Assembly: GCA_050613775.1 (NCBI GenBank)
Contig: JBODTK010000115.1
Location: 1 to 64,000 of the forward strand
Direction: 5' to 3'
Origin: Neocallimastix sp. 'constans'
Taxonomy: Eukaryota
DNA: 64,000 nucleotides
Shown here: one piece after another, positions 8,521 to 55,173 of the stretch
How positions within the stretch are numbered: the first letter of the stretch is position 1
Layout of the letters: every line of letters starts with the position of its first letter
The notes under the pieces: model-generated
The model's database searches: none
What the model was told of the DNA's origin: nothing
What the model saw: the letters and a program-made list of their open reading frames with translations, nothing else
Program-made: the position numbers and the translations under genes

Positions 8521-8532
8521 GCGGGGAGATTA

Positions 8533-10589: not shown

Positions 10590-10606
10590 CTGAAGATTTC
10601 GTTACA

Positions 10607-13322: not shown

Positions 13323-13324
13323 CT

Positions 13325-18448: not shown

Positions 18449-18641
18449 CTGAAGATTTCGTTACAATAATTATCTAATTTATTTTATTTACTTATTTTGG
18501 TTATTATTTATTATTTTATTAATTTAATAATTTAATAACAACGAAGAATAATTAAAAGAAATATTTACAAGTATTTATATTTTTACACGAATTTAAGGTA
18601 TTTATAATTTTAGTAAGAAAAGAAATAAAAGAACAAATATA

Positions 18642-19520: not shown

Positions 19521-19612
19521 TTTAATTATTTATTTACTTATTATTATGTATATATGTATTTATTTACTATTATTAATTATATAATATTTTTATTTTTATT
19601 ATTATTTGTAAC

Positions 19613-21017
19613 TGATACGGGCTGGGGTTGAAACACTAAGATATTCAAAACAAAAAAATAAATATTAACACATAACTATAAAAACAAATTTGGAAACAAG
19701 AAAAAAATTAAATTTTAAAATATTCGTTATTTAAATTTAAAATTAAAATTATTTGTTCCAAGTATTAAAAAGAAAGAAATTTATTCTTCTTTTTATACTT
19801 TTATTTTAATACATTTTATTTATTATTAATATATTCTTTATAAAAAAAACTATTATAACTATTTTATTTTAATTTTTAACTATTATTTTAAATTATTTTT
19901 TTAAAAAAAAAATAACATTTATTAAATTAAAATATAAAAAATTAATTTAGAGATTGTATCACGAAGGGCATTCCGGGCGGTAGCTTCTTCTTGATATTGT
20001 TTTTCAGAGAGAGAATTATACAGAATTGATATTTTCTGTATTTTAGATCATTTTTTATTATTGAAATTCTGTATTTTAGTTCATTTTTATTTTTAATAAA
20101 GATTTAATTTATTTTTGATTTTTGATTTATTTTTAGTTTATTTCAAAGGTTTAGAAAATATTATACAGAAACTTATAATTCTGTATTTTATATCAAATAT
20201 TTATTGAAATAGGTTTTTATTATTCTTAATATAAAAGTAAGAATTAATAATGATTTAAATATTATATAATTTTTAATAAGAATAATTTATTGAAATAGGT
20301 TTTTATTATTCTTAATATAAAAGTAAGAATTAATAATGATTTAAATATTATATAATTTTTAATAAGAATAATTTATTGAAATAGGTTTTTATTATTCTTA
20401 ATATAAAAGTAAGAATTAATAATGATTTAAATATTATATAATTTTTAATAAGAATATTTAATAATAATTTTTATTATATTTAATATTAATAAAAGAAATT
20501 TATAAGAATATTTAATAATAATTTTTATTATATTTAATATTAATAAAAGAAATTTATAAGAATATTTAATAATAATTTTTATTATATTTAATATTAATAA
20601 AAGAAATTTATAAGAATATTTAATAATAATTTTTATTATATTTGATATTAATAAAGGAAATTTATAAGAATATTTAATAATAATTTTTATTATATTTGAT
20701 ATTAATAAAAGATTTTAATAAGAATATTTAATAATAATTTTTTATTATATTTAATATTAATAAAAGATTTTTATTAGAATATTTAATAATTTTTATTATA
20801 TTTAATATTAATAAAAGAAATTTATAAGAATATTTAATAATAATTTTTATTATATTTAATATTAATAAAAGAAATTTATAAGAATATTTAATAATAATTT
20901 TTATTATATTTGTTATTAATAAAAGATTTTAATAAGAATATTTAATAATAATTTTATTTTATTATTATTAAGAGTATTTAATAGGAAATACAAGGTATTT
21001 AGTGACACCCCGTATCA
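19613..21017 (-). mobile_element. Solo LTR, family L1, TSD TAAC
   Basis: Reverse complement of the element A LTR; TAAC at 19609-19612 and 21018-21021; extra 86-bp triplication at about 20201-20455. Confidence 0.92.
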
Positions 21018-21021
21018 TAAC

Positions 21022-21528
21022 TGATATGATATTTTTTTTAAACATCAATATCAATATTTATTTTATTTTATTTGGACGATAACAGTAGGGAATAATTGAC
21101 AAAATAATATATTCTAATATTATATAGAATAATACACACAATAATAATATTCACACTTTAATATTTAGTTTATTTATTTTATTTATTTATTATCATTCAT
21201 CAATAAAAATACATCATCAATATAAATAGTTGTTAACTAGTTAAAATATAATTAAATCATTCAATAAAATATAATTAATTACTAAAATCTCTCATATTAT
21301 TAATGTAAACTAAATATAAAACTACACTAAACTATACTAATAAACATGTTTATAGGTTAAATTATTAATAAAGCTAAATTAATATTAATAAAAGAACCAT
21401 TCTTTAAACTATTATTATTTACTAACTATATATACTATTATTAAATTATTATTAACCAATAAGATTTTATCAAATAATTCCTAACCTAAGTTTCACTAAA
21501 TTATGGTATTTATGGTGGTACCGTATCA
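21022..21528. mobile_element. Solo LTR, family L3, TSD TAAC
   Basis: TGATATG...CCGTATCA termini; TAAC on both sides. Confidence 0.75.
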
Positions 21529-21533
21529 TAACG

Positions 21534-22489
21534 TGTAATAATCATACTAAGATCTAATACTAAATATGATTATTAACTTCAACTTAATGACTAATTCATT
21601 AAGTTGAGAAATAAAATAAAAAAAAAAATTTTACCTAAAAAAGAGTTTATTATAAAATTAATTATAATAACAACACAAAAACCAAAGGAAGAAATATTTG
21701 TATAAAGTTAAAGTTGGTTTTAAAAAATATGTTTTTGAATAAAATATTTTATTAATTTATAAAAATTTAGAATGTAATATTGTTATCATTATAACTATCT
21801 TTTATATAATAATAACTTTTGATTTCTTAAAGAGAAATCAAGAGCCCTTTTTATATTTTTTTTAATGAATTAAGGTTAAATAAAAAGTTTTTCTAATCTT
21901 AAAAATTATCTTATCTAGAAAAAGATTAGAAGAAAAAACTAGATAAGTTTTTTGATCGATATTCTATTCATATCGATCATCGTATATATTAAGTAAAACC
22001 AAATATATTATTTTATATTTGGATAAAACCTTAATATATCGATTTTCTAAATTTTAATTTAGATCATCAAATAAAAGGAAAAATAAATAATAACCGGAAT
22101 GATCTAAATTATTCTATTTTTATAAATATTATTTTTGAAATCTAATCTAAACATATTAACATAAACTATCTTTAAAAAATACAGAAACTTATTAATTGTT
22201 CTTTTAAATGTACAATGTACAAAATAAATAAAACTAATGTTTACATTAACTTAATTAAATGAATAACTAAATAAAATTAATAATATTAATAAAAGTATAT
22301 ATAATAATTATTTAAATAAATTTTTTAATATTATTTTAGTGTATGAATAATTATATTTTTAATAAATTTGATTATAGTATTTCAATGTATGAATTAATTA
22401 AAATTTAAATAAATTTGTAATTATTATCAATAATTATAAAGACTAAGAAATAGTAATTATTTATTAATAAATAATTATTATTTCTAACA
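21534..22489 (-). mobile_element. Solo LTR S1 (element D-like group), TSD TAACG
   Basis: TGTAATA...TCTAACA; TAACG at 21529-21533 and 22490-22494; shares the structured module with the D LTRs. Confidence 0.82.
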
Positions 22490-22495
22490 TAACGA

Positions 22496-23461
22496 TGGTA
22501 GACTCGGGGTTAACACGTATAAATTTAAAATCAAGCAGGGGGGGGACGGGTATTACCCTGCTTTGATTTTAAATAAAAAAAAAATTTCTTTTTATTAAAA
22601 TTATTTATTAATATTAAATTTTATTTTTTTTTAAAGTACAAATATTTAATTTTTAAGAAATATTTACAATATTTATATTTTTTTATGAATTTAAAGTATA
22701 ATTAGTTGTTTATAATTTAAGTAATTTTATAGAATTATTGAATTAATTTTATATCAATAATTCATTTTTGTTTTAATTTTTATAAATATAATAATATAAT
22801 ATTCAAATATAATTTAATTAAAAATAATTATAAAATAAATATATAGAAAATAGTTTTTACTATTTTCTTTGATATTTTTAAGTTAAATAAATTGTTTTTA
22901 AAGATTAATATAATAAATTTAATAATCTTTAATTATTTTAAATAATACTTGTAATTATTTTCAAAATAAAATAAAATTTTTATAATATTTAATTAATAAA
23001 TTTGATAATATTTAAATAATAAATTTTTATAATAATTAATAATTTTTAATAATAATTTTTAATAATAAATTTAATTAATAATCTTAATAATTTTATAATA
23101 ATATTTAATAGTTATAATAAATAAATTTTTATAATAATATTTAATAATTTTAATAATTTTATAATATTAATAGTTTATAATAATTTTTATAATAATATTT
23201 AATTAATAATTTTAATAATTTAGTATCTTAAAAGTATAATTTTAATATTTACAATTGTATTTTAATATATACATAGATTTAATAATATACCAATAAAGTA
23301 ATTAATTAAAATTGATTTACATTATTTACAAATTAAAATTAATTTATATCAAAATAAATTAAAATTTATTATTAAGTTTAGGTTATCAAGAATTTAGGAA
23401 AGTACAATTTAGTAAAGAATTATTAATAATAAAATAAAGGTTATTAATTCATTCTTTACCA
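22496..23461. mobile_element. Solo LTR, family L2 (inverted relative to the 17434 copy), non-matching flanks ACGA/ATTT
   Basis: TGGTAGACTCGGGG...CTTTACCA; reverse complement of 17434-18448. Confidence 0.85.
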
Positions 23462-23465
23462 ATTT

Positions 23466-24295
23466 TGTTAAGGTTTTAGAGAATTAAATAAAAATAAAGT
23501 AAAGAAACACAAATTTTATTTATTTATTTATTATTTTATTTATTTATTTTATTAATTGATTTTATTCGATTTGATTTTATGGTTTTTAAAAATTGGTAGC
23601 AAAATTTACAACTATTTATACTTTTTTTTTCAAGGTATAAAAGTTGTTCTTGCCACTAAATTACATTTTATTATTATTTTTTTTTATATAAAAACTATTA
23701 AATTTAAATTGATTTTTATAATCAATTATATAAAATTTAATTATAACAATATAAATAAAATACATTTATAATATTAATAAAATTTTTTTTTTTTTTTTTT
23801 TTTTTAATAATCTATCTAAAATATTACTAATAAGAATTTATTTAATTGGCTATAATTTTTATTACAATCTGTTAAAATATTCAAATAAAAATAAAAATAC
23901 TATTCTAATATAAAGGTTTTTAATAAAATAAAATATTTTTCAATATAAAATAAAACATTTCGATATAAAATTTTATAATAAAAGTTAAAATATAATATAT
24001 AAATTTTTAATTATCAATATATAAAAATATTATTAATACAAATTTTCATTATTAATATAAAAACAAAAAAAATAAGATTTATTATTAATATTGCTAATAT
24101 AAGCTTTAAATATATAAAAATGTTACTATTAATAAAGATTTAATATAAAAATATAAAGTTTAATATAATTTTGATTTAATTTTTGATCTTTGGATTTAAA
24201 AATTTATTAAAGTACAAAAATAATAATGTACAATAATGTATTAGAAATAAATCGTAGATTTAATTAAGAATGCATTATTTAGTATATTCTTATCA
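23466..24295. mobile_element. Solo LTR, family L4, TSD ATTT
   Basis: TGTTAAGG...TCTTATCA; inverted near-identical copy at 26988-27816. Confidence 0.85.
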
Positions 24296-24298
24296 ATT

Positions 24299-26002
24299 TG
24301 TAATAGCTATACTAAAACTAAAATTAATTAATATAACTATTATCTACAATTTTAATATTATTTTTACATAATATTAAAATTGGGAAAATAAAAATTAAAA
24401 AATAAAAATTATACTTAAATTATGCCGAGTTTATTATAAGTAAATATAATAAACAATAACCAAGCTACAGTAGAATAGTAGTTGTAAATATTTTTAAAAT
24501 AATAAAAAAAAGCTTTTATGATTAATAATAGTTTTTGATATATCTATAAAAAATTTATTTTATTTGTTATTATTTATTATATTTTCTTAAAATAATAACT
24601 CTTGATTTCTCAAAGAGAATTCAAGAGTCCTATTTATATTTTTTTTTTAAAATCAATCGGTTAAATAAATTATTTTCTAATCTTAACAAAAAATCTATTT
24701 AGGAAAAGATTAGAAGAAAAATCTAAATAGTTTTTCGATCAATATTCTAATCATATTGATCATCATATAATTAAAGAAAACCTATTTGTTAGGAAAAACA
24801 TTAATTACCGATTTTCTAATTTAATTATTAAAATATTAAATATTGATAGGAAAAAAAAAGATTTTTTTTTTTTTTTTTCATTTAAAAAATAAAGATTAAA
24901 TAATATGATAGATTAGATACATTTATAGTTTATAATACATTATAAAATACATAATTCATTTTAATTAAAATAACTAATATTTTTTATGGTAAAATATTAA
25001 ATACAAATTTACATAATTTTTTGTAAAAATTCTATTTAAATGAATAATAATAATATGTAAATAAATTTTATATTATTTATATAAATGTATAAATTATAAT
25101 ATGTAAATAAATTTAGATCAATATATGAAAATATAACTATTAAATAAATTTATAAGTTAAAATCAATGAATATATTAATTATTATTTAAATAAATATTTT
25201 TTAAAAATAATTATTATTTTATAAATAATTATAAATTATTAATTATTTTTCATTAATTATATGTTAAAATTAAGATATAAAATAGTTTTATGATTAATAA
25301 TGTTACTAGGTTAATATGTTGAATTATATATTAATAATCCAACAATAATTAATTAATAATAATATAATTAAAATAATATAAGATAAATAGTTAAGTTATT
25401 TAAACACTTAATATCTAAGAATATTTTAAATAATAATTTCTTTGAAGGATTTATGAAAATATTTATTTATTGAATTATTAGTATATAATTATTGTAAATA
25501 CAATAACCTTACAAAGAAAATAAAAGATAGATTTTTACATCTTTCTTTTATACTTTGTAAGTTACATAATAATACTATTTAATTATAAGATAATAATAAT
25601 ATAGTAAAATGAATATTAATAAAATATTAAAATAATAGCAATATCGATATGTTTAAAATATTTAATATAATTTAATAAATTTAATTTGTATAATTAATTT
25701 GAATAATTAAAAATAGTAATTAATATATATGATATAAACATATATATAAACATAATATAAATAAATACATGTGACGTCATATGTAAATAATTGAAATTAT
25801 AAATATAAATCTTATTTATTAATATTTTCAGAATTATTAGGCCTAAGATAATTCTTTAAATATTAAATAAGAATTTATATTAATTATTAATTAAATGTAT
25901 ATTGAAATGTGAATAACTGAAATTGAGATTTCAATTCAGTTATAATTTCAACATTATAAGAAATATTAATTATTCATTATTGAATAATTATGATTTCTTA
26001 CA
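24299..26002 (-). mobile_element. Solo LTR S2 (D-like group; long, may contain a further insertion), TSD CAATT
   Basis: TGTAATAG...TTCTTACA; CAATT at 24294-24298 and 26003-26007; structured module at about 24595-24812. Confidence 0.72.
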
Positions 26003-26007
26003 CAATT

Positions 26008-26981
26008 TGTAATAATTTAATTATAAAATGTAATTAAATTATTAATCATTAATATTAGCTCTAACTGCTAATATTAAGGATTAGAAAAGAATCATACTTA
26101 CCTATGATTCAAATCTAATTACTTGGAGTTTATTATAGCAAATATAATAAACGAAACACTAAACTCAGAAAGAGAGCCGGTTTATATTTTGTGAAATTCT
26201 TTTATTAAACAATTTATTTTTTATTAATATAAAAGTAATTAAAAATATTTATTTTAATATTATTGTTATTATTATTATTTATTATATTTGTTATAATAAT
26301 AACTCTTGATTTCTCAAAGAGAACTCAAGAGCCTTATTTATACTTTTTTGTCAAAATAAGGTTAAAATCAAAAGGGGTTCTAATCTTAACAATTCTCTTA
26401 TCTAGGAAAAGATTAGATAGAAAAACCTAGATAAGCTTTTGATCGATATTCTATCCATATCGACCATCGTATTAATTAAATAAAACCAATTACTTTATGG
26501 AAGTAATTGGAAAAACCTTAATTAACCGATTGGTTAATCTAATCTAATGATCGAAAATAAAAGAACAAAAATAAAAGATATTTCGATCATATAAATATGA
26601 ATTTACATATAAGGAAAACAATATATAAATAACATTAAATTATGTATTAAGCAAAATATAAGATACATTATAAAATACAGAATACATTATACAATATAGA
26701 GTAATGTTTTAGTTACATAGTTTAACTAAATTACTAAACTAATAAATTTAATATCTAAATGAATAATTAAATAAATTATTATTATTATTTAAATGTATAA
26801 AATCTATTTATCTAAATAATTTTCTAATACTAAATTAAATAAATATTTAATATAATATTAAAAATAAAATATTAATTATAATTAAGTGTACGAAAGTAAT
26901 ATGATCTAAATAAAGTTATATTATTATAACTTAACTAAGAAAATATAATTATTTTGTTAAAAATAATTATAGATTCTTACA
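26008..26981 (-). mobile_element. Solo LTR S3 (D-like group), TSD CAATT
   Basis: TGTAATAA...TTCTTACA; CAATT at 26003-26007 and 26982-26986. Confidence 0.85.
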
Positions 26982-26987
26982 CAATTT

Positions 26988-27816
26988 TGATAAGAATGTA
27001 CTAAATAATGAATTCTTAATTAAATCTACGATTTATTTCTAATACATTATGTGTACATTATTATTTTTGTACTTTAATAAATTTTTAAATTCAAAGATTA
27101 AAAATTAAATTCAAAATTATATTAAACTTTATATTTTTATATTAAATCTTATATTAATAGTAATATTTTTATATATTTAAAACTTATATTAACAATATTA
27201 ATAATAAATCTTATTTTTTTTATTTTTATATTAATAATGAAAATTTGTATTAATAATATTTTTATATATTGATAATTAAAAATTTATATATTATATTTTA
27301 ACTTTTATTATAAAATTTTATATCGAAATGTTTTATTTTATATTGACAAATATTTTATTTTATTAAAAACCTTTATATTAGAATAGTATTTTTATTTTTA
27401 TTTGAATATTTTAACAGATTGTAATAAAAATTATAGCCAATTAAATAAATTCTTATTAGTAATATTTTAGATAGATTATAAAATAAAAAAAAAAAAAAAA
27501 AAAAAGGTTTTATTAATATTATAAATGTATTTTATTTATATTGTTATAATTAAATTTTATATAATTGATTATAAAAATCAATTTAAATTTAATAGTTTTT
27601 ATATATAAAAAGAAAATAATAATAAAATGTAATTTAGTGGCAAGAACAACTTTTATACCTCGAAAAAAAAAGTATAAATAGTTGTAAATTTTGCTACCAA
27701 TTTTTAAGAATCATCAAAAAAATTAATTAATAAAATAAATAAATAAAATAATAAATAAATAAATAAAATTTGTGTTTCTTTACTTTATTTTTATTTAATT
27801 CTCTAAAACCTTAACA
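26988..27816. mobile_element. Solo LTR, family L4 (inverted copy), TSD ATTT
   Basis: TGATAAGA...CCTTAACA; reverse complement of 23466-24295. Confidence 0.85.
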
Positions 27817-27819
27817 ATT

Positions 27820-28860
27820 TGATACGGGCTGGGGTTGAAACACTAAGATATTCAAGCAAAAAAAATAAATATTAACACATAACTATAAAAATAAATTTGG
27901 AAACAAAAAAAAAAAATTATTTTAAAATATTCTTTATTTAAATTTAAAATTAAAATTATGTGTTCCAAGTATTAAAAAGAAAGAAATTTATTCTTCTTTT
28001 TATACTTTTATTTTAATACATTTTATTTATTATTAATATATTCTTTATAAAAAAACTATTATAACTATTTTATTTTAATTTTTAACTATTATTTTAAATT
28101 ATTTTTTTAAAAAAAAAATAACATTTATTAAATTAAAATATAAAAAATTAATTTAGAGATTGTATCACGAAGGGCATTCCGGGCGGTAGTTTCTTCTTGA
28201 TATTGTTTTTCAGAGAGAGAATTATACAGAATTGATATTTTCTGTATTTTAGTTCATTTTTATTTTTAATAAAGATTTAATTTATTTTTGATTTTTGATT
28301 TATTTTTAGTTTACTTCAAAGGTTTAGAAAATATTATACAGAAACTTATAATTCTGTATTTTATATCAAATATTTATTGAAATAGGTTTTTATTATTTTT
28401 AATATAAAAATAAGAATTAATAATGATTTAAATATTATATAATTTTTAATAAGAATATTTAATAATAATTTTTATTATATTTAATATTAATAAAAGATTT
28501 TTATTAGAATATTTAATAATAATTTTTATTATATTTGATATTAATAAAAGATTTTAATAAGAATATTTAATAATAATTTTTTATTATATTTAATATTAAT
28601 AAAAGATTTTAATAAGAATATTTAATAATAATTTTTTATTATATTTAATATTAATAAAAGATTTTAATAAGAATATTTAATAATAATTTTTATTATATTT
28701 AATATTAATAAAAGAAATTTATAAGAATATTTAATAATAATTTTTATTATATTTGTTATTAATAAAAGATTTTAATAAGAATATTTAATAATAATTTTAT
28801 TTTATTATTATTAAGAGTATTTAATAAGAAATACAAGGTATTTAGTGACACCCCGTATCA
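27820..28860 (-). mobile_element. Solo LTR, family L1, TSD AATT
   Basis: TGATACGGG...CCCGTATCA; AATT at 27816-27819 and 28861-28864. Confidence 0.92.
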
Positions 28861-28863
28861 AAT

Positions 28864-29722
28864 TGTAAGAATCTATAATTATTTGTTAGCAAATAATTAT
28901 ATTTTCTTAGTTAAGTTATTATAACTATAACTTTATTTAATTACATATAATATTTATTAAATTTATTTAATTTAATTTTAAATATTCATTAATTTAACAA
29001 AATTTATTTAATTAATTTTAAATAATATATTTACAATATGTTAAATTCTCTACTGTAACTAATGTATTCTGTATTGTATTGTATTCTGTATTTTATAATG
29101 TATTGTGTATTTTATTAACTATTTAATTTTATATTTTTAATATAAGGATAAATTATATGATCGAAATATCTTTTATTATTTTATTCTTTTATTTTCGATC
29201 ATTAAATTAGATTGGAAAATCGGTTAATTAAGATTTTTTCCAATTACTTTTTAGAAGTAATCGGTTTTACTTAATTAATGCGATGATCGATATGGATAGA
29301 ATATCGATCGAAAACTTATCTAGGTTTTTCTATCTAATCTTTTCCTAGATAAGAGATTTGTTAAGATTAGAAAACCCTTTCTTATTTAACCTTATTTTAA
29401 TAAAAAAATATAAATAAGGCTCTTGAGTTCTCTTTGAGAAATCAAGAGTTATTATTATATAAAAATATAGTTATAATAGTAACAATTTTATATTTTTAAC
29501 CTTAATAAATTAATAATATATTTTATTCAAAAAACATATTTTAAAATTAAATTTATACAAACAATTCTTCTCTTACTTCTCGTGTTATTATTATATCAAT
29601 TTTATAATAAACTCTAAAGGTAAAACATATTTATTTTATTTTATTTTCTCAACTTAATGAATTAGTCGTTAAGTTGTAGTCAATAATTCTATTTTGAGTT
29701 AGTTCTTAATAGAATTATTACA
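28864..29722 (+). mobile_element. Solo LTR S4 (D-like group, opposite orientation), TSD CAAAT
   Basis: TGTAAGAA...TTATTACA; CAAAT at 28859-28863 and 29723-29727; module reads as the reverse complement of S3. Confidence 0.85.
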
Positions 29723-29727
29723 CAAAT

Positions 29728-30201
29728 TGTAAGAAATTACTTATAAAATTAATTATAAATAATTTCTTAACTACAAATTAACATTAATTATTACTAATTA
29801 ACATTAATTTGAGAAAATAAAATTAAATATAATTAAATAAATATAAAATAATATAAATAAATAATTATACTTAACTTAAATATAAGATAGAGTTTATTAT
29901 AGAAAGTTTATAATAAACAATAACACAAAAGGAATAAAAGACACAAATATTTATAAAATATGTTTTATTAAAAGGGTTTTGTTTTATTAATTAATTATTT
30001 TATTTGAATTATTATTTATTATAAAAATTCTAAAATAATAACTCTTGATTTCTCGAAGAGAACTCAAGAGAATCAAATATATATAAATTAATAATTAAAT
30101 ATTATTGGTTAAAATAAATACAATAATTTAATGTATTAAATTAATGTATTAAATAAGAAAGATAGATAAATTTTTTAATAAATTTATCTAAGTTTCTTAC
30201 A
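29728..30201 (-). mobile_element. Short, internally deleted solo LTR S5 (D-like group), TSD CAAAT
   Basis: TGTAAGAA...TTCTTACA; keeps the ATAATAACTCTTGATTTCTC hairpin but lacks the ENE/pseudoknot part. Confidence 0.75.
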
Positions 30202-31013
30202 CAAATGTAATAATTTCTATAAATTATAGAAATTATTATTTATAATTAATATTAACTAAACTATTAAGATTAATTAAAAAATAAAATAAAAATTAAAATA
30301 AAAATAAGAATTTAATACTTATCTTTAAAATTAGAGTTTATTATAAGAAAATATAATAGACCTTAAATGAAAAGAGAAATAAAATAAAATATGTTTTTAT
30401 TAAAAGAACTTTATTAATTTATTTTATTATTAAATATTTTATTATTATTTTTTTTTGACAAATTTTAAAATAACTATTTTATATTAATTGAAATATTAAT
30501 GTCTTTTATTGTTATTATATTTTTCTTAAAATAATAACTCTTGATTTTCTAAAGACGAAAATCAACAGCTATTTATATTTTTTACAAAAGTAAATGGATT
30601 TTTCTAATCTTAACAATGATTCTTTCCAGAAAAAGATTAGAAGAAAAAACTGGAAAGATTTTTGATCAATAATCTATACTTATTGATCATCGTGTTATTA
30701 AATAAAACCAATTATAATTAATCGGGAAAACTTTAATAACCGATTTTAATAACTAAAAGAATTAAAAAGAAAAAAGGATAAAAAAGAGAAGGATAAAATA
30801 ATGCAGAAATTTTATTGAATACATTTTTTCTATGAAATAATACAGAAGTTATATTAAATACATTTTTTCATATAACAATTAATACATTAATTGGTATAAT
30901 TGATTTTAAATGAAATAAATTTTTAATGAATAATAATTATGAAATAATTATTAATTAATAAGAAATAGAAATAAATTATAAAAATTTATATCAATTTCTT
31001 ACATTGCACCTCC

Positions 31014-34000
31014 TTATGATGCATCCACTAGTTCCGGATTTCTTTTTGTATAAGGCTCCAACTGGGAAACATGAAATACCGGATGTAAATGTAGATTTTC
31101 TGGAAAATCTAAACGGTAATTCATTCTCTCCCTCACTTCCAAAACTCTAAACGGCCCAAGATATTGTGAAGAAAGTTTTTTGGATGGCTCATTTGTAAAA
31201 TAATATCTTTTTAGCCATACAAAATCATTTACTTTGAATGAAGGTCCTGTAGCTTTCTTCGAATCTCCAAACTTCTTAAAATTTTCTTTAGCTTTTTGTA
31301 AGTGTCTCTTCAATGCTTCGAAATGTGAGGACCAATCCCTGGTTAAAGCGGAAGCATTATTCTTTAGAAGAACAGGAGGCGACTCTATAGTACAGGAAGG
31401 ATTAAAGCCATAATTAACAAAGAATGGTAATTTACCTATGGACTTATGCAGGGAGTTGTTATAGGCCATTTCACATAAAGGAACATAATAACACCATTCA
31501 TTTTGGGACGTTGAACAATAACATCGGAGATACTGCTCAATTACTGAATTTGCACGCTCAATTTGTCCATTGGATTGTTGATGGTGAGCTGTGGCAAGTC
31601 TTGGATTAGCGTTAATAGCAGAGCACAACGAAGTCCAAAATTCTGATGAAAATTGAGAACCATGGTCCGAAACAATTATTTTAGGGAATCCATGGTAGCG
31701 AAAAACATTGAATAGAAGCATTTTGGCCGTCAGATCAGCGGAGGGAACATCAGAACAAGGAACAAGGTGAATCATTTTGGTCAGATGGTCAGCTACAACC
31801 ATTAAACATGTACAATCTTGCGAGCTGGGAAGTGAAGTGATAAAGTCAACGCTAATTATTTCCCAAGGTCTACTGGGAACCAGTAAAGGTTGTATTTTAC
31901 CATATGGCTTGTGTCTTCGGAGCTTATTTCTTCCACAAACATCGCATGAGGATATGTAATTCTTGATATCTTTTTTCATATTTGGCCACCAATAATTTCT
32001 TCTTAATTTTTCAAAAGTTTTATCTACTCCTTGGTGACCATTAGTTGGACCATCATGATATATTTTCAATACCTTGGCCTTGAGTGAAGAAGGGACAATT
32101 ATTCGGTTCTGAAAATGCAGAACCCCTTCGACGATGGTAAAAAGCGAACTTTTTACTTCATTTGACCTTGTTTTAATTTTATTGAGTGTATCCTTACAGT
32201 ATGTGTCAGACTTCTGAGCTTCAATTAAGGCTTTTAAGTTGTCAGAAGGTGCACAACAAAATATCTCTTCATCTAACAGAGGATAACCTTCATTGGTCGA
32301 ATCCTTGTTGACGTAATCGGGGCGTCTTGACAAAGAGTCAGGTTTACCACTCTTAATACCGGAGCGAAATGAAATCCTATAAGTGAACTTTGAGAGAAAG
32401 AGACTCCGTCTAATTTGTCTTTGGTTTAATTTTTGAGGTTGCTTAAAATATAACAGATTTCTGTGATCTGTGACTACTTGTACTGGAAATTTAGCACCTT
32501 CTAGGTGATGGCGCCAGGTTTCAAAAGCTACGATTATTGCAAGTAATTCCTTGTCATAAATAGTATAATTGATTTCAGCAGAAGACAAGGACCTAGAGTA
32601 GAAAGCAACCGGATGGAGTTTATTGTCTTTGTTACTAATTTGAGATAAAACACAACCAACAGCGAAATTGCTAGCGTCAGTTTCTACAAAGAATTCTTTC
32701 TCTGGATCTGGATAAACTAGGATTTCTTCCGTCGTAAAAGCTTCTTTGAGTTTGTTGAAAGCATTGTCTGCCCTAACATCCCAAATGAAGGAAGAGTTCT
32801 TCTTCAAAAGCCGACGGAGAGGTTCAATGATCTCGGCAAAATTATTTATAAACTTCCTATAGAAGTTACAAAGTCCTAGAAACCCTTGGAGTTCTTTAAT
32901 ATTTTTTGGGATAGGCCAGTCGATAACAGCTTTAACCTTATTCCTGTCCAATGAAAGACCATTTACAGACACCACAAACCCTAAAAAAATAGTTTCTTTA
33001 ACGTGAAAATCACATTTTTCCAATTTCACGTAAAGACCATTTTTAATTAGAAGCGACAATATTTTACGAACATGCTGAATATGTTCGTCCAAACTTTTTG
33101 AATAAATTATTATATCATCCAAGTATACTTGAACAAATATGCCAATTGCATCAGATAAAACATCCTGGATGAATCTTTGAAACACCGAGGGGGCATTTCT
33201 TAGGCCAAAGGGCATTACTAGATATTCAAATTGGCCTAAAGGTGTTCTAAAAGCAGTTAAATATTTATGACCTTCTTTAACGCGGACAAGGTTATACGCA
33301 GATCGAAGGTCCAAACGAGTGAATATTACTGCCCCCTTAAACGATTCAATCAAGTCAACCAATCTTGGGATAGGGTAGCTATTCCTAATAGTAATAGAAT
33401 TTAATTTCCTATAATCAACGCAGAGTCGTAAGCTTCCATCTTGTTTTTTTACAAACAGGACAGGGGCACCAGCAGGTGATTTTGACTTCCTTATAAACCC
33501 CTTATCTAAATTTTCTTTTAAATAATTTTTAAGAGCTTCCATTTCGACAATCGTAAGAGAGTACACAGGTCCATAATATAATTGACCACCAGGGACTAGG
33601 TCAATTGATATATCATATTCACGATGTGGAGGCAATTTGTCTGCCTCTTTCTTTTCAAATACAATTTTCAAATCTTGATAGTATATGTTGATAATTTCAT
33701 CTTTATCAGTTTCATTTACTAAAGCGGCGCAAATATCTATATCAAAAAGTTCGTCACCAGATATTGAGTATGTTTCTGTTTTATCTTTTGATACATTGTT
33801 GTTTTCGTTGTTTGACAAAATTGCGGCAGTAACATCTTTAGAGTGAAAAATGAATTTATTCCCTTTTGCTGAAGGGCAGTGATTTCCGCAGTGGTTCTCT
33901 AAAAAGTAAATCTTATTATTTTTGAAGTCTACGTATGGCATATGAATACTCAACCAATCTCTTCCAAGGATGGCTGATATTCCCTGAAGTTGTAAGGTAG

Positions 34001-34343
34001 CTACGTAGAATTCATAGCTTTCCTTGTGGTCCATGAAGGCAAGGCCTAATTTCTTCGTTACTTGTCTTATATTCATACTTTTGTTGTTCGGTAACTGAAT
34101 GTTCAATGGTGAAGACAAGGTAGATAATTGAATTCTGTTGGCGTTTACAAAGTCTCTACAGATGTAACTTCTTGCAAAACCAGAATCAATAAGGACGTTT
34201 ATTTTCATTTTCTTTCCATTATTATTTAATATAAATGTAGTGGTCATTGAATTTGAGGTGTTTGGTGTATAGTTAGCCGAAAGGATGCTTTCTTTGTTTT
34301 GATTTTTTCTGAATTTCTTGTGTACTTTGTTGTTCTTGAATTC
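31014..34343 (-). CDS. pol: Pol of element D (PR, RT, RNase H, IN; no chromodomain)
   Basis: VLIDSG, LPPHREYD, SKSPAGAPVLFVKK, YLDD, ETDAS, WEIISVDF, SDHGSQF, GPF, HPVFHVSQL. The frame is open back to the gag stop. Confidence 0.93.
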   Translation of the reverse strand, partial: EFKNNKVHKKFRKNQNKESILSANYTPNTSNSMTTTFILNNNGKKMKINVLIDSGFARSYICRDFVNANRIQLSTLSSPLNIQLPNNKSMNIRQVTKKLGLAFMDHKESYEFYVATLQLQGISAILGRDWLSIHMPYVDFKNNKIYFLENHCGNHCPSAKGNKFIFHSKDVTAAILSNNENNNVSKDKTETYSISGDELFDIDICAALVNETDKDEIINIYYQDLKIVFEKKEADKLPPHREYDISIDLVPGGQLYYGPVYSLTIVEMEALKNYLKENLDKGFIRKSKSPAGAPVLFVKKQDGSLRLCVDYRKLNSITIRNSYPIPRLVDLIESFKGAVIFTRLDLRSAYNLVRVKEGHKYLTAFRTPLGQFEYLVMPFGLRNAPSVFQRFIQDVLSDAIGIFVQVYLDDIIIYSKSLDEHIQHVRKILSLLIKNGLYVKLEKCDFHVKETIFLGFVVSVNGLSLDRNKVKAVIDWPIPKNIKELQGFLGLCNFYRKFINNFAEIIEPLRRLLKKNSSFIWDVRADNAFNKLKEAFTTEEILVYPDPEKEFFVETDASNFAVGCVLSQISNKDNKLHPVAFYSRSLSSAEINYTIYDKELLAIIVAFETWRHHLEGAKFPVQVVTDHRNLLYFKQPQKLNQRQIRRSLFLSKFTYRISFRSGIKSGKPDSLSRRPDYVNKDSTNEGYPLLDEEIFCCAPSDNLKALIEAQKSDTYCKDTLNKIKTRSNEVKSSLFTIVEGVLHFQNRIIVPSSLKAKVLKIYHDGPTNGHQGVDKTFEKLRRNYWWPNMKKDIKNYISSCDVCGRNKLRRHKPYGKIQPLLVPSRPWEIISVDFITSLPSSQDCTCLMVVADHLTKMIHLVPCSDVPSADLTAKMLLFNVFRYHGFPKIIVSDHGSQFSSEFWTSLCSAINANPRLATAHHQQSNGQIERANSVIEQYLRCYCSTSQNEWCYYVPLCEMAYNNSLHKSIGKLPFFVNYGFNPSCTIESPPVLLKNNASALTRDWSSHFEALKRHLQKAKENFKKFGDSKKATGPSFKVNDFVWLKRYYFTNEPSKKLSSQYLGPFRVLEVRERMNYRLDFPENLHLHPVFHVSQLEPYTKRNPELVDAS

Positions 34344-35009
34344 CTATTTTGGATGCTCATCTCTTTTTCTTTTTTGCGACTTGTTGGTTGACTTATTTGT
34401 TTTGGCTAGGTTGTTAATATAACATTTTTTATCGATGCTGATGATTGAATTTGTTGCTTCAAAAAGGGTCTTTGGTCTTTCGATTTTATCGAACTCCAGA
34501 CGAACCTCCTCAAGAAGGCCTCTCCGGATAAGGTCAATAAAAACATCGTCGTTCCAACCAATTCTTGACGCTAATCTTCTGAATTCAATAGTGAAGAAAG
34601 CTGCCTTTCCGAGGTGAAGCTGTTTAAGGTTCAAAAGTTCTTCAATTAAAACAAACCTTTGTTCCTTTGTATCTCCAAAATTTTCTAACAATAACCTCTT
34701 AAATTCCTCATAGGTGAGAGAATTAAGTGTTCCATCAGCCTTGAGAGATAATCCCCATTTTTTAGCTGGTCCATAAAGTTTGCTGATAACGAAAGCGTTT
34801 CTAAAGTCGTCACTTGGGAACGAATTGGCATGTTCATCAAAGAACAATTCACACTGTTCCGTTAGTTCGTTTAGATTAAGCTTTGTGTTGTCTTCATTGC
34901 GGGCCAACACACCGTTAGGTGAAAAAAATGTTGGAATAAATTCGGTAATTGCAGAAATTAATTTTGACGCTTCAGCTTCCTTAGTAGCTTCCATACTGGT
35001 TGAATTCAT
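34344..35009 (-). CDS. gag: Gag of element D (retrotransposon capsid)
   Basis: FVISKLYGPAKKW...F...L...F and LLNLKQ...FTIEFRRLASRIGWND match the gypsy Gag pattern; same frame as pol. Confidence 0.88.
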   Translation of the reverse strand: MNSTSMEATKEAEASKLISAITEFIPTFFSPNGVLARNEDNTKLNLNELTEQCELFFDEHANSFPSDDFRNAFVISKLYGPAKKWGLSLKADGTLNSLTYEEFKRLLLENFGDTKEQRFVLIEELLNLKQLHLGKAAFFTIEFRRLASRIGWNDDVFIDLIRRGLLEEVRLEFDKIERPKTLFEATNSIISIDKKCYINNLAKTNKSTNKSQKRKRDEHPK

Positions 35010-35879
35010 TAAAATACTAAATAGACTTTTTTAATATAATAGAACTTTAATATATCTTTAATATATCTTTAATATATCTTTAAAATATTTTTAAAATATC
35101 TTTAAAATATCTTTAAAATATCTTTAAAATATCCTTTAAAATATGTATATAATTGTTAAATATAAATTATTTATATTAATAATAGAAATTTATAACTTCG
35201 GAGTCTAGAAGAACACTTCCAATATTTTAACAAAAATGAGCATTTCCGACCAATTTTCCAGAAGCCCCTGAGTTTGAGTGATAGTATGCGCTATACGACC
35301 AGCTTGCCTATTAATGGTGTCTTGTTGCCGCGCGCACCACGATTGCAATCTGTTTACCATTAAAACAGACCAGTTCAGAGCCTCCCGCACAGCTTGTCGT
35401 GAAGGGTAAACTTAATCCGGAAATCACTCAGTTACAAGACTCAGGCTACTCCTGCTTCTAAAGTTCGTACTAATTCTCATTATATTGTTTATTTTTGGAA
35501 ATAACTTCTAGAATCCTTTATTATAAATTAATATTTTTAAATATAAAAAATTTAATTATTAGTATAATTTATAGTATATGATTTACGTATTTATTATTAT
35601 TGTTATTGTTATAATTATTTTATTTAATAATATAATTATATTATCTACTAGTATATACAATTTAATTTATATAATTATAATTTACTATTAAAATTTTTTT
35701 TTTTTTTTTTTTTTTTATTATATTATTTATTTATCTGATTGGAAAAAATAATAATTTTTTTTTTTTTTTTTTTTTCTTTAATATTATTTATTTATTTATT
35801 TGATCGGATAAAATAATTTTTTTTTTTTTTTTTTTACTTTTGTACTACAATATCATAATACAATTAACTAATTACCTAG

Positions 35880-35891
35880 AAGAGTTATTAT
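35880..35891 (-). promoter_or_regulatory. Self-priming primer-binding site of element D
   Basis: Minus-strand ATAATAACTCTT abuts the 5' LTR and is complementary to AAGAGTTATTAT at 36225-36214 in the LTR, about 30 nt downstream of TATAAATA. No TGG tRNA-type PBS. Confidence 0.78.
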
Positions 35892-36703
35892 TGTAATAAT
35901 TTCTATAAATTATAGAAATTATTATTTATAATTAATATTAACTAAACTATTAAGATTAATTAAAAAATAAAATAAAAATTAAAATAAAAATAAGAATTTA
36001 ATACTTATCTTTAAAATTAGAGTTTATTATAAGAAAATATAATAGACCTTAAATGAAAAGAGAAATAAAATAAAATATGTTTTTATTAAAAGAACTTTAT
36101 TAATTTATTTTATTATTAAATATTTTATTATTTTTTTTTGACAAATTTTAAAATAACTATTTTATATTAATTGAAATATTAATGTCTTTTATTGTTATTA
36201 TATTTTTCTTAAAATAATAACTCTTGATTTTCTAAAGACGAAAATCAACAGCTATTTATATTTTTTACAAAAGTAAATGGATTTTTCTAATCTTAACAAT
36301 GATTCTTTCCAGAAAAAGATTAGAAGAAAAAACTGGAAAGATTTTTGATCAATAATCTATACTTATTGATCATCGTGTTATTAAATAAAACCAATTATAA
36401 TTAATCGGGAAAACTTTAATAACCGATTTTAATAACTAAAAGAATTAAAAAGAAAAAAGGATAAAAAAGAGAAGGATAAAATAATGCAGAAATTTTATTG
36501 AATACATTTTTTCTATGAAATAATACAGAAGTTATATTAAATACATTTTTTCATATAACAATTAATACATTAATTGGTATAATTGTTTTTAAATGAAATA
36601 AATTTTTAATGAATAATAATTATGAAATAATTATTAATTAATAAGAAATAGAAATAAATTATAAAAATTTATATCAATTTCTTACACAAATTTATTTGAT
36701 AAT

Positions 36704-36750
36704 AGCAGCGTAGCGCAGTGGAAGCGTATGATCGAAATATACCGCTGCTA
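36704..36750 (+). pseudogene. Initiator tRNA-Met-like gene lacking the anticodon arm and variable loop
   Basis: Acceptor AGCAGCG/CGCTGCT+A (A1-U72), D arm GCGC-AGTGGAA-GCGT, T arm GTATG-ATCGAAA-TATAC with the initiator-type T loop; T6 run at 36764-36769; only 47 nt. Confidence 0.88.
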
Positions 36751-36759
36751 GGAAATAAC

Positions 36760-36910
36760 TTTGTTTTTTGAATTATTATATAATTTGATACAATGAATAG
36801 TTGAAATTATGGAAATTATAAAAACAATTAAAATAAAATTTATTGTTTTTATAATTTCCATAATTTCAACTATTCATTGTATCAAATTATATAATAATTC
36901 AAAAAACAAA
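36760..36910. repeat. Perfect inverted repeat, 69-bp arms, 13-nt spacer
   Basis: 36760-36828 is the exact reverse complement of 36842-36910. Confidence 0.92.
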
Positions 36911-38681
36911 TTAAAAATAAAATTATTTAATTAAAAAAAAAGTCTTAAAAAACATGTTTATATAATAAAATATTAATTAAGTAATTATTTCAAAATATAT
37001 AATAATTATTTATAGTTACATGTTTATTATTTATTACTTAAATAATAAATACTTTTTTGATTATTTTCTATTTAACTATTTTTTTTTTTTATGTTTATTT
37101 TTTTTTTTTTTATTTTTATTCTTATTTTTTTTTGCCGCTAAATTAATAAAAAAAAAACGAAAATGTATATAATATAATTTAATATATTTTTAATTAATTT
37201 AATATAATTCTTGCCGTTAACCATTAAAAGAAGTTTAATTATTATTATTTTATTTTATTTTTTTTTTATAAAATTTTTAATAAATAATAAAATAATCAAG
37301 AATAAAGAGAAAAAAAATTATAAAAAATAATATATATGAAAATAAATATAATATATATAAATAAATATAATATGGATTAATATAAATAATATTTATAAAT
37401 AATAAAATTTTTTTTGTATTATTTTCTTTATTTGTTTTTTGGACGGATGATATGAAAAGAAGAAAAAAAAATTATTTAAATTAAAAATAAATTAAATATA
37501 AATTAAATATAAATTAAATTAAAAATAGAATAAAAAATGAAATTGAAACTTTTATTAATTTCTTAATAATAGTACGTATAATAACAACAAAATACCAGAA
37601 GATACAGTAAAAAATAACAAATATAGATATATAAATTTTATAAATTATAAATTTGATATAATAATAAATGTTATATTCTTATATCATCAATAATTAATCG
37701 AATAATAAATAAATAATAAATAAATATAATATAATTCATTTGCAATAATTATAATTAATTCTATTTATTATAATATAATAATAATATAAATATAATAATA
37801 ATATAAATATAAAATAACATTAAGTATAATATAAATGTATAATGTAAATGTATAATAATGTAATGTATAGTAATAATAATAATAATAATAAATAAAGTTT
37901 TAGTACTTCAAATGAAAAACCATAAAAGGAAAAAAAGATTTTTTACATTGACCAAAAATTTATAAATTTGGTTTTTAATTTAAATAAATAAAATAATATG
38001 TGAATAAATAAATAAATAGTATGATTTATAAATAAATAAATAAATAGATAAATAAATAAATAGTATGATTAATAAAATAAATAAATAAATAATTTAATTA
38101 TTTAATTATTAAAAAAAAAAAAAAAAAGAAATAAAAGTGGTACAAAATTTATTTATATTAAATTTTTTTTTTCTTTTTTTAATATTTTATTTTATTATAT
38201 TTTTTTCAATTAAAAGAAAAAACAGTACAACTATCATAAATACAATAAAGAAAAAAAAAAAAAATTTTTGTTTTTAAAAATTAAATTAAATAAATTAAAT
38301 ATTTAATGTATATAAATAATTATCATTTTTCTTCATTTTAACAATTTTCCTTTATTTTCTTTTTTTTTTTTATTTTATTTTATATTTAAATTTAAATTTT
38401 GTAAAATAGTAATAAAAATAGGTTATAAATAATTAAATAAATAAATAAAAAGAATTATTTGTATATACATTATTTATATTTGTATATTTTTATTATAATT
38501 TTTATTAATATATAATAACAATTTGTATAATTCAACCAAATTACATTTTTATTATTACTATAATTTTTTTTTATAACATTATAAATTCTAATATTGAGAT
38601 AAAAAGATATTTAGATAAATAAATAAATAAATAAATAAATAACAGTTAAATAATATTTTAAAAAATTTTTAAATTTAAAAA

Positions 38682-40256
38682 ATGAAATTATTACAAATAA
38701 TTCCATTCTTATTTTCAGTGACATCCACTACACTTGCTCAAAGTTTCTGTAGTGCCACTGGTCACTCAGGTCAAAGTATAAATGTTAATGGTAATAAACT
38801 TGGTAAAATAGGTAATGTTAATTATCAGTTATGGGCTGATAGTGGTAATAATAGAGCTACTTTCTATTCTGATGGTTCTTTCTCTTGTGGTTTCGAGAGA
38901 GCTGGAGATTATTTATGTCGTACTGGTCTTTCCTTTGAGGGTGCAAGAACTCCATCACAAATTGGTCGTATTAAGGCTGATTTTAAAGTGAAAAAAGAAA
39001 GTGTCAGTAATGTTGGTTATTCCTACATTGGTATTTATGGTTGGACTAAAAATCCTCGTGTTGAATGGTATATCGTGGATGACTGGCTTTCAAAGGAAAG
39101 ACCAGGGGATTGGATTGGTAATCAAAAAAAGGGTGACTTTACCATTGATGGTGCTGAATATACTGTTTATAGAAATCAACGTGCAGATCTCACTCAATAT
39201 TTCAGTCTTCGTAAGGTGGGTCGTGATTGTGGTACCATCGATATTTCAGCTCACTTTGATCAATGGGAAAAACTTGGTATGACAATGGGTACCCTGGATG
39301 AAGCTAAAGTTTTAGCTGAAATTGGAAATGGTAACGGTGGGGTCACCGGTACCGTCGATTTCCCTTACGCTAAAGTTTATCTTGGTAATGCTAGTGAAAG
39401 TAGTAGTCCTTCTACTTCTACTACTACTACTCCAGCACAATCTGTTGGTCAAGATCAAACTCAAGGTCAAACTCAAGGTCAAACACAACCACCTGCTCAA
39501 AATGCTCCAACTCAAAACCAACCACCTACTCAAGCACCACCAACTCAAAATGCTCCAACTCAAAACCAACCACCTACTCAAGCTCCATCAACTCAAAATG
39601 TTCCAGTTCAGGCTCCACCCACTCAAGCCCCACCACCACAAAATAATAATGGTGCTGGTAATCCATGGGGTAGTGGTGGCGGTAATCCATTTGATAATGC
39701 AGGCGGAAATCCATGGGGTAACGCTGGAGGTAATCCATTTGGTAACGGAGGAGGTAATCCATTTGGTAACGGAGGAGGTAATCCATTTGGTAACGGAGGT
39801 GGTAACCCATTTGGTAACGGAGGAGGTAATCCATTTGGTAACGGAGGTGGTAACCCATTTGGTAACGGAGGTGGTAACCCATTTGGTAATGGAGGTGGTA
39901 ATCCATCAAATAATGCTGCTCCCGGTGGTGGTAATCCATGGTCTATGTGGGGAAATGGAGGTAATGCACCAGGTTGGCCTACACCAAATAATGCAGCTCC
40001 ATTAAATCCAGGTGGTGCTCCAGGTGCTCCAGGGGGTATCCCTGGTTTTGGTCAAGGTATGGGTCCAGCTCCAATTAAATTTGCTACATCATCAGCGGTT
40101 AACTCTTCCACCAATAATAAATCCGATGGTAAATCCAATGGTAAATGTGCAGCAACTTGGGCTCAATGCGGTGGTGAAGGATTTAAGGGACCAAATTGTT
40201 GTACCAGTGGTAATTGTAAAATCATTAATAAATATTACCATCAATGTAAACCATAA
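38682..40256 (+). CDS. Secreted GH11 xylanase-like protein with low-complexity linker and C-terminal CBM1
   Basis: Signal peptide; GH11 motifs SYIGIYGW, VEWYIVD, GTIDISAHFDQW, EAKVLAE; Q/P/T and GGGNPFGN linker; CBM1 WAQCGGEGFKG...C...C..INKYYHQC. Intronless. Confidence 0.93.
   Translation: MKLLQIIPFLFSVTSTTLAQSFCSATGHSGQSINVNGNKLGKIGNVNYQLWADSGNNRATFYSDGSFSCGFERAGDYLCRTGLSFEGARTPSQIGRIKADFKVKKESVSNVGYSYIGIYGWTKNPRVEWYIVDDWLSKERPGDWIGNQKKGDFTIDGAEYTVYRNQRADLTQYFSLRKVGRDCGTIDISAHFDQWEKLGMTMGTLDEAKVLAEIGNGNGGVTGTVDFPYAKVYLGNASESSSPSTSTTTTPAQSVGQDQTQGQTQGQTQPPAQNAPTQNQPPTQAPPTQNAPTQNQPPTQAPSTQNVPVQAPPTQAPPPQNNNGAGNPWGSGGGNPFDNAGGNPWGNAGGNPFGNGGGNPFGNGGGNPFGNGGGNPFGNGGGNPFGNGGGNPFGNGGGNPFGNGGGNPSNNAAPGGGNPWSMWGNGGNAPGWPTPNNAAPLNPGGAPGAPGGIPGFGQGMGPAPIKFATSSAVNSSTNNKSDGKSNGKCAATWAQCGGEGFKGPNCCTSGNCKIINKYYHQCKP
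39661..39940 (+). repeat. 24-bp coding tandem repeat (GGGNPFGN)n
   Basis: GGTAACGGAGGWGGTAAYCCATTT units; about 7 perfect units plus degenerate NPW/NPF flanks. Confidence 0.92.
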
Positions 40257-55118: not shown

Positions 55119-55167
<49 letters not shown>

Positions 55168-55173
55168 ATAATA

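What the first reader, a model, noticed from the sequence alone, without database searches (positions are those of the whole stretch)
22496..36750. Chronological tape of 9 LTR insertions, each 14-17 bp upstream of one tRNA-iMet-like gene
Seen: the junctions unpeel from right to left and each step regenerates the flank ...ATTTATTTGATAAT|AGCAGCG. TSD and distance from LTR end to tRNA +1: D CAAA (17), S5 CAAAT (17), S4 CAAAT (17), L1 AATT (15), L4 ATTT (14), S3 CAATT (16), S2 CAATT (16), L4 ATTT (14), L2 right flank (14). The TSDs of S2, L1 and S4 include the terminal A or CA of their left neighbour, which fixes the order oldest-left to youngest-right. The only full-length element (D) is next to the tRNA. 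Known: yeast Ty3 integrates at Pol III start sites through TFIIIB, and Dictyostelium DGLT-A inserts just upstream of tRNA genes. Inference: at least two distinct gypsy lineages here (A-type and Tf1/sushi-like D-type) share Pol III targeting with family-specific offsets, and the locus records the order of their activity.
Basis: partly seen in the sequence, partly recalled or inferred. Interest (0 to 1): 0.92.

Follow-up and report, generated by a model that had tools for sequence, protein, structure and literature searches.

The report
Nine retrotransposons stacked before tRNA gene
Nine jumping-gene insertions of eight different sequence types sit end to end just in front of a now-broken tRNA gene in what is likely a gut fungus, probably because two unrelated retrotransposon lineages both aim at tRNA gene start sites, as yeast Ty3 does.

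Summary
The stack is real. All eight target-site duplications (TSDs) and all nine distances (14-17 bp) reproduce exactly. Three corrections. (1) The tRNA-iMet has lost 25 nt including the anticodon arm; it is a pseudogene or an assembly error, untested by reads. (2) TSDs alone do not fix the order: 6720 of 40320 orders fit, and only L1 before S4, S5 and D is forced. The strict left-to-right order follows only if tRNA anchoring is assumed. (3) The same families also cluster at a 17-nt motif with no tRNA nearby. Independent support for targeting is thin: one metagenome contig has an LTR-like end 14 bp before an intact tRNA-iMet. Best reading (0.75): Ty3/Tj1/DGLT-A-like Pol III start-site targeting by two gypsy lineages (39% RT-RNaseH identity), with no chromodomain detected in either. 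The mechanism is known from yeasts and amoebae. My searches found no report of it in gut fungi or of a stack this deep. This scan noted shorter stacks before on other DNA (e1-8067551, e1-9986045). No genome-wide test was possible.

The parts
36704..36750 (+). tRNA-iMet pseudogene (or mis-assembled gene): acceptor stem, D arm/A box and T arm/B box present, 25 nt with anticodon arm and variable loop missing
   Evidence: not detected; alignment to intact copy in L002, 1 mismatch outside the gap
36687..36703 (+). 17-bp flank between D and tRNA +1; its last 14 bases are regenerated at every unpeeling step
30206..36686 (-). Element D: full-length Tf1/sushi-like gypsy element, transcribed away from the tRNA; TSD CAAA (4 bp, or 5 bp with one base lost)
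35892..36686 (-). D 5' LTR (795 bp)
35880..35891 (-). D primer-binding site, 12 of 12 bases complementary to a site inside the LTR (self-priming type)
31014..35009 (-). D gag-pol (1331 codons; capsid, PR, RT, RNase H, IN, Tf2-type SH3; no chromodomain); premature stop at codon 222 (34344-34346), where the 99%-identical relative P0001 is open
30206..31003 (-). D 3' LTR (798 bp), preceded on the minus strand by a purine-rich tract at 31004-31015
29728..30201 (-). S5 solo LTR, TSD CAAAT, offset 17
   Evidence: self-priming motif
28864..29722 (+). S4 solo LTR, inverted relative to D, TSD CAAAT, offset 17
27820..28860 (-). L1 solo LTR of the A-type element (same family as 8533-10589), TSD AATT, offset 15
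26988..27816 (+). L4b solo LTR, TSD ATTT, offset 14; inverted copy of L4a (orientation inferred from end motifs)
26008..26981 (-). S3 solo LTR, TSD CAATT, offset 16
24299..26002 (-). S2 solo LTR (1704 bp; may hide a further piece), TSD CAATT, offset 16
23466..24295 (-). L4a solo LTR, TSD ATTT, offset 14
22496..23461 (-). L2 LTR, offset 14, no TSD; probably the 5' LTR of the gag remnant at 18642-19529 or a recombinant LTR
19613..22489 (.).
18449..18465 (+). 17-nt motif after L2A (17434-18448, TSD CTGA); probable primer-binding site of L-type elements and second insertion hot spot
10590..10606 (+). 17-nt motif after L1A (8533-10589); solo LTR C1 (10609-11547, TSD ACATG) sits at its end

Best explanation
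Nine gypsy-type LTR insertions lie end to end 14-17 bp upstream of one tRNA-iMet gene, likely because their integration complexes were tethered to the RNA polymerase III initiation factors on that gene and each likely landed between the previous insertion and the tRNA. Shown: the junctions, TSDs, distances, the two pol lineages, D's self-priming site. Inferred: the tRNA's internal A and B boxes position TFIIIC/TFIIIB at a fixed place, so each insertion pushes older ones away and leaves the same 14-bp flank; eight copies then collapsed to solo LTRs by LTR-LTR recombination; 4-bp-TSD L types cut at -14/-15 and 5-bp-TSD S/D types at -16/-17, the latter always starting at the CA left by the previous LTR; the 25-nt deletion in the tRNA probably came last and would have closed the target. 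With no chromodomain detected in either integrase, the tether would differ from Ty3's chromodomain-Brf1 contact (SH3-TBP, or an RNase H-Tfc4 contact as in DGLT-A, are candidates).
For:: 8 of 8 TSDs, all offsets in a 4-bp window; exactly 1 of the 6720 TSD-compatible orders has every insertion next to the tRNA, and it gives 14-17. The only full-length, near-identical-LTR element is the tRNA-proximal one; of 2 collection matches to the tRNA 5' part, one (L002, AT-rich, with A-type pol 50-59% identical to the window's) has an L-type LTR-like end exactly 14 bp before an intact tRNA-iMet; mixed loose-end consensus behind the L1 end reads 14 bases then GCGG in 2 of 4 runs (tRNA-like start; weak). Literature: Ty3 cuts at -6/-2 from the start site with a 5-bp TSD (10.1101/2021.07.27.453949), which fits S2/S3 if the start is the A at -10; 18 of 20 DGLT-A copies lie 13-18 bp upstream (PMC6101501); the self-priming Tj1 targets the same zone (PMC4600332).
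Against: No genome-wide count. L1, L2 and S-type LTRs also sit at a 17-nt motif with no tRNA gene: of the copies in this window, 2 of 3 L1, 1 of 2 L2 and 1 of 6 S/D insertions are there. A-type element E (54239-61863, identical LTRs, TSD CAAA) has no tRNA nearby. The target tRNA is broken. L2 and the L002 LTR-like element lack TSDs, and the L002 element shows no homology to window LTRs beyond AT-rich noise. The other collection match, L001, is a tRNA array with no such end before 10 of its 11 genes examined (probably another kind of organism). TSDs force only L1 before S4, S5, D.
Confidence: 0.75

Rival explanations
1. LTR-end self-targeting: these elements insert within a few bases of the end of an existing LTR (or its primer-binding site), so stacks nucleate on any LTR; only the first insertion, if any, was guided by the tRNA.
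For: Every insertion in the stack is within 0-5 bp of another LTR end; all 5 S/D TSDs begin with CA; a second three-element stack and two more insertions (L2A, C1) sit at the 17-nt motif beside LTR U5 ends, without a tRNA; contigs that run from an L1-like end into an S-like start with other letters occur in 3 of 4 runs laid (none has 31 letters on both sides); 6720 orders fit the TSDs.
Against: Does not predict that the youngest, full-length element is next to the tRNA, nor the same 14-bp spacing at another genome's tRNA-iMet. In an anchored stack closeness to the previous LTR is automatic.
Confidence: 0.15
2. Local sequence hot spot plus tolerance: an AT-rich bendable word (ATTT/CAATT) is regenerated by each TSD and reused, and insertions there are simply harmless.
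For: The TSD words are all overlapping variants of one short AT-rich word; other insertions use other words (TAAC, CTGA, ACATG, CAAA).
Against: ATTT makes up 3.6% of 4-mers in this region, so hundreds of equal sites inside the LTRs were not used; L002 has a different flank but the same distance.
Confidence: 0.06
3. Assembly artefact: repeats were chained by the assembler.
For: No read-level confirmation; no contig spans the tested L1|S4 junction with 31 letters on both sides.
Against: Eight different sequence types in two orientations joined by exact 4-5 bp duplications is not a pattern an assembler makes. The tRNA deletion alone could still be an error.
Confidence: 0.03

Closest known systems
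Ty3 / sigma (Saccharomyces cerevisiae)
   Same: Gypsy order RT-RH-IN; best solved-structure match for both pol types; insertion about 15 bp before mature tRNA, 5-bp TSD, both orientations
   Different: D's match to Ty3 Gag-Pol ends at residue 1447 of 1547 and D ends about 11 residues after its SH3 domain, so the C-terminal chromodomain that contacts Brf1 in Ty3 has no room; D is self-priming; L types make 4-bp TSDs; eight LTR types share one site
Tj1 (Schizosaccharomyces japonicus)
   Same: Tf1-like self-priming element, 5-bp TSD, inserts just upstream of Pol III genes (PMC4600332)
   Different: Tj1 inserted 5-11 bp from the mature tRNA and always in the tRNA's direction; here 16-17 bp counted with the TSD (11-13 without) and 4 of 5 S/D copies face away. 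D's gag-pol stop is a lesion of this copy, not Tj1's programmed stop: 12 of 12 relatives aligned have one open frame. No sequence comparison with Tj1 was made.
DGLT-A (Dictyostelium)
   Same: Chromodomain-less gypsy with short IN tail and CCHC gag, 13-18 bp upstream of tRNA genes, mostly solo LTRs (PMC5006619, PMC6101501); the A-type elements here share these features
   Different: Amoeba with a gene-dense genome; here a gene-poor, repeat-rich fungal window; relationship not tested by phylogeny; the Tfc4 contact not tested
Candida beta/Tca8, Yarrowia Tyl3/Tyl6/Ylt1
   Same: [quoted passage not shown]
   Different: All Ascomycota; no stack of this depth seen in the passages read

Membership tests
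Ty3/gypsy LTR retrotransposons (element D, A-type elements) | LTRs with TG...CA, TSD, pol order PR-RT-RH-IN | tested here: met
Tf1/sushi self-priming group (element D, S LTRs) | PBS complementary to a site in the LTR instead of a tRNA | tested here: met
   12 of 12 bases; the motif is in S1-S5 and D at 268-326 bp from the U5 end, absent from C1, L1, L2, L4a
Tf1/sushi self-priming group (element D, S LTRs) | RT-IN phylogeny with Tf1/sushi/chromoviruses | tested here: inconclusive
   No tree built; Tf2-type SH3 domain present; next relatives outside the D clade mostly carry a chromodomain
Chromoviruses in the strict sense | Chromodomain at the integrase C terminus | tested here: not met
   None in D or in P0001-P0021; present in the separate fragment at 11883-13370
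Pol III-targeted LTR retrotransposons (Ty3, Tj1, DGLT-A behaviour) | Insertion within about 5-20 bp upstream of the mature tRNA | tested here: met
   conditional on the anchored order for the eight non-adjacent copies
Pol III-targeted LTR retrotransposons (Ty3, Tj1, DGLT-A behaviour) | Most genomic copies lie at Pol III genes | not testable with these tools
   No genome held; contig loose ends are mixed consensus; window counts are mixed
Pol III-targeted LTR retrotransposons (Ty3, Tj1, DGLT-A behaviour) | Physical tether to TFIIIB or TFIIIC; dependence on A/B boxes | not tested
   Needs host factor sequences and experiments
Ty3 proper | Vestigial chromodomain after the SH3 fold that binds Brf1 | tested here: not met
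Eukaryotic initiator tRNA-Met gene | A1-U72 pair, ATCG T loop, A/B boxes | tested here: met
   46 of 47 bases equal the intact gene in L002, called tRNA-Met(CAT); initiator assignment from the recalled A1-U72/ATCG signature
Eukaryotic initiator tRNA-Met gene | Anticodon arm with CAT; cloverleaf | tested here: not met

The most novel reading that the evidence does not exclude
In anaerobic gut fungi, whose genomes are gene-poor and swollen with repeats, at least two unrelated gypsy lineages and eight LTR families target Pol III start sites without Ty3's chromodomain tether, so tRNA genes carry deep, ordered tapes of retrotransposon activity; a 17-nt primer-site motif acts as a second anchor that lets the elements target each other.
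Probability: 0.35. Interest if true: 0.75.

Novelty: new variant of a known kind. Interest (0 to 1): 0.55.

Why it matters
tRNA-gene targeting has been explained as a way to avoid genes in compact genomes (PMC5006619). Finding it, shared by two distant lineages, in a gene-poor and repeat-rich fungal window would weaken that explanation and extend the behaviour to early-diverging fungi. If the anchored order holds, such stacks date families relative to each other without a molecular clock. Integrases that hit a 4-bp window without Ty3's chromodomain would point to another tether, and to a natural safe-landing tool for a fungal group that is hard to engineer.

Tried and rejected
Whole-genome mapping: no genome held. 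Read support for the tRNA deletion and D's flank was not obtained and stays open. (L1|S4 junction, 4 contig sets): no contig spans the stretch; loose ends are consensus of 2-15 contigs, 73 rows not shown, so no count of tRNA-adjacent copies. Viral collection: L1-end motif gave 5 matches in large contigs with no tRNA within 1 kb, taken as chance; D pol gave none; alignments gave 4 and 3 distant relatives without tRNA genes. Genome collection: 33 loci, 2 of the D clade (L008, L009), contaminant contigs that hold only internal parts; the 41 tRNA matches of that genome were not examined further as they lie on other contigs, taken to be bacterial; its other retroelement contigs did not show the 17-nt motif in context. 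Rejected: D's gag-pol stop as Tj1-like read-through. Rejected: TSDs fix the order. Rfam mir-4782 hit at 36792-36878 is an AT-rich palindrome far below the cut-off. Dating by divergence along the stack was not possible: too few same-family copies. Primer for the 17-nt motif not identified; its reading as a PBS, as the end of another LTR, or as both remains open. Not in print: searches found no paper on tRNA targeting in gut fungi or chytrids or on such stacks; I saw only listings for these. A 2024 paper on gut-fungal LTR retrotransposons (Navaratna et al., recalled, not seen) did not come up and may bear on novelty.
Full report
Host. The window is 5-44% GC per kb, mostly under 25%, has a GH11 xylanase with CBM1 at 38679-40256 and is otherwise mostly retrotransposons. 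Named relatives of both pol types include Orpinomyces proteins (45% for D; 56-65% for the A type), and the best-holding runs include animal faeces metagenomes. An anaerobic gut fungus is the likely host (inference). No whole genome is held.

Observation. The joint chance from local word frequencies is below 1e-15. The nine insertions are eight sequence types: L4a and L4b differ at 1.7% of sites, while S2-S5 and D align at only about 68-75% over long stretches. Seven face away from the tRNA and two (L4b, S4) towards it; orientation is shown for D, S and L1 and inferred from end motifs for L2 and L4.

The elements. D is a full-length gypsy element with capsid, protease, RT, RNase H, integrase and a Tf2-type SH3 domain, no chromodomain. 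Its PBS is 12 of 12 bases complementary to a site in its LTR, the Tf1 self-priming layout, and S1-S5 carry the same motif. Its LTRs differ by one substitution and one indel. It belongs to a clade of 21 listed proteins at 61-99% identity, none with a chromodomain, while most of the next relatives have one. The stop between gag and pol is a lesion of this copy: 12 of 12 relatives aligned are open there, and this copy differs from P0001 at 17 of 1331 positions. L1 is the LTR of the A-type element at 1472-10589 (polypurine tract directly before 8533). A-type and D pol share 39% in RT-RNase H and 26% in integrase, so two lineages are involved. Assigning L2 and L4 to the A type rests on end motifs and 4-bp TSDs only.

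The target. The tRNA-like gene is found by neither ARAGORN nor Rfam. Against an intact tRNA-Met gene in L002 it matches 46 of 47 bases but lacks 25 nt between two CGT words, removing the anticodon arm and variable loop. That brings the A and B boxes 25 nt closer, probably too close for TFIIIC (recalled knowledge, not tested). The simplest history is that the deletion followed D's insertion and ended the stack. Whether the deletion is real is not confirmed by reads.

The order. Enumerating removals (L2 held as oldest) gives 6720 of 40320 orders that fit the TSDs; only L1 before S4, S5 and D is forced, and seven of eight elements could be last. The reason is that a TSD can also borrow the first T of a right neighbour, and that L2 also ends in CA. 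Exactly one order has every insertion next to the tRNA, and it is left to right with offsets 14-17. So the chronology is a consequence of the targeting model, supported by D being the one intact, young element, and cannot itself be used as proof of targeting.

Outside support. A metagenome scan with the tRNA's 5' part gave 2 matches. L002 is AT-rich, holds an A-type pol fragment and has an LTR-like stretch ending in CGTATCA, the end motif of L1 and L3, exactly 14 bp before an intact tRNA-iMet, with a different flank sequence; it has no TSD and no real homology to window LTRs. L001 is an 11-gene tRNA array without such ends before the 10 genes examined. Contigs of four runs laid on the L1|S4 junction show both families at high summed depth; behind the L1 end the mixed consensus reads 14 bases then GCGG in two runs, the polypurine tract in one and nothing clear in one. 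This is a weak hint only, and one of these runs may be the source of the window.

Against. A second stack lies directly left of L2: L1B (TSD TAAC), L3 (TAAC) and S1 (TAACG), all in the tail of a 17-nt motif that also follows L1A and L2A, where L2A (TSD CTGA) and C1 (TSD ACATG) have inserted. A variant of the motif follows the far end of the L002 element. No tRNA gene is near any of these. The motif follows LTR U5 ends in 4 of 4 cases and precedes a gag remnant in one, so it is probably an L-type PBS, but it could be the end of another LTR. These three elements could also be the older part of the same tape (offset 19, if L2's left TSD lost three bases) or of a tape at another tRNA joined by L2-L2 recombination (offset 16); I cannot separate these readings. 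A-type element E, with identical LTRs and a tRNA-Ala PBS, is not at a tRNA.

Mechanism. Most likely (0.75) the intasomes were tethered to Pol III initiation factors. In the Ty3 structure the cuts fall at -6 and -2 from the start site, with SH3-TBP and chromodomain-Brf1 contacts (10.1101/2021.07.27.453949, passages). If the start is the A at -10, S2 and S3 (-16 to -12) match this exactly. All five S/D TSDs begin at the CA left by the previous L-type LTR, and shift from 16 to 17 when that CA shifts, so the offset reflects both family and local sequence. D's match to Ty3 stops 100 residues before Ty3's end, so the chromodomain contact is unlikely; DGLT-A uses RNase H and the integrase N-terminal extension on Tfc4 (PMC6101501, passages). 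No tether was tested here.

What is known. Ty3, Tj1, Tca8, Tyl3/Tyl6/Ylt1 and DGLT-A all insert in this zone (PMC5911963, passages and Table 1; PMC4600332, abstract, background and passages; PMC5006619, passages; the S. osmophilus preprint, passages, added nothing). No supplements were read. Searches found no report for gut fungi or chytrids or of such a stack; the library lacks most subscription papers. The scan's own notes hold a two-element stack 16 bp before tRNA-Leu in a probable gut fungus and a tRNA/5S-targeting clade in an early-diverging fungus; these are unchecked and not counted as evidence.

Verdict. Observation confirmed, interpretation partly supported. A known behaviour in a new host group, with unusual depth, two lineages and an unexplained second hot spot. 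Interest 0.55.

Noticed in passing
window 36760-36910: Palindrome with 72-nt arms, 99% complementary, 7-nt loop, starting 9 bp after the tRNA-like gene; MITE-like; supplies the first T run after the gene.
   Followed up: partly
window 10590-10606, 18449-18465, 19607-22495; L002 1389-1404: 17-nt motif (or variant) after U5 ends of L-type LTRs, hit by at least five insertions of four LTR types; primer or function unidentified.
   Followed up: partly
window 10609-11547: Solo LTR C1 with 9-bp terminal inverted repeats and TSD ACATG; the sequence behind it starts TGG and could be a PBS on the plus strand or the polypurine tract of the chromovirus fragment at 11883-13370 on the minus strand.
   Followed up: partly
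window 54239-61863: Full-length A-type element E, LTRs 566 of 566 identical, TSD CAAA, PBS matching tRNA-Ala 5 bp after the LTR; very recent; not at a tRNA gene. A further E-like LTR piece lies inverted at 53829-53970.
   Followed up: partly
window 1472-10589: A-type element with open gag (CCHC) and 1863-codon pol carrying long Asn-rich inserts; its 2057-bp 3' LTR is expanded by about 54-bp tandem repeats whose number differs between the three L1 copies (2057, 1405, 1041 bp).
   Followed up: no
window 46827-52710: Copia-type element with short LTRs (about 200 bp, 1.4% divergent), pol broken by stops.
   Followed up: no
window 31014-35009: D differs from P0001 at 17 of 1331 residues although its LTRs are 99.9% identical: born defective and moved in trans, or LTRs homogenised.
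   Followed up: partly
window 38679-40256: GH11 xylanase with long Pro/Gly/Asn linker and C-terminal CBM1, 1.9 kb downstream of the tRNA-like gene; usable as anchor for the orthologous locus.
   Followed up: no
L002 2501-2657: tRNA-iMet followed after 1 bp by tRNA-Ser(GCT): a dimeric tRNA gene pair; the window's copy has no such partner.
   Followed up: no
L001 1-3042: AT-rich contig with 11 different tRNA genes in 2.7 kb, including a fused Ala-His pair; no LTR ends seen.
   Followed up: no
G001 (L008, L009, L078, L084, L092-L094): A bacterial MAG carries at least six contigs of gut-fungal-type retrotransposons: bin contamination.
   Followed up: partly
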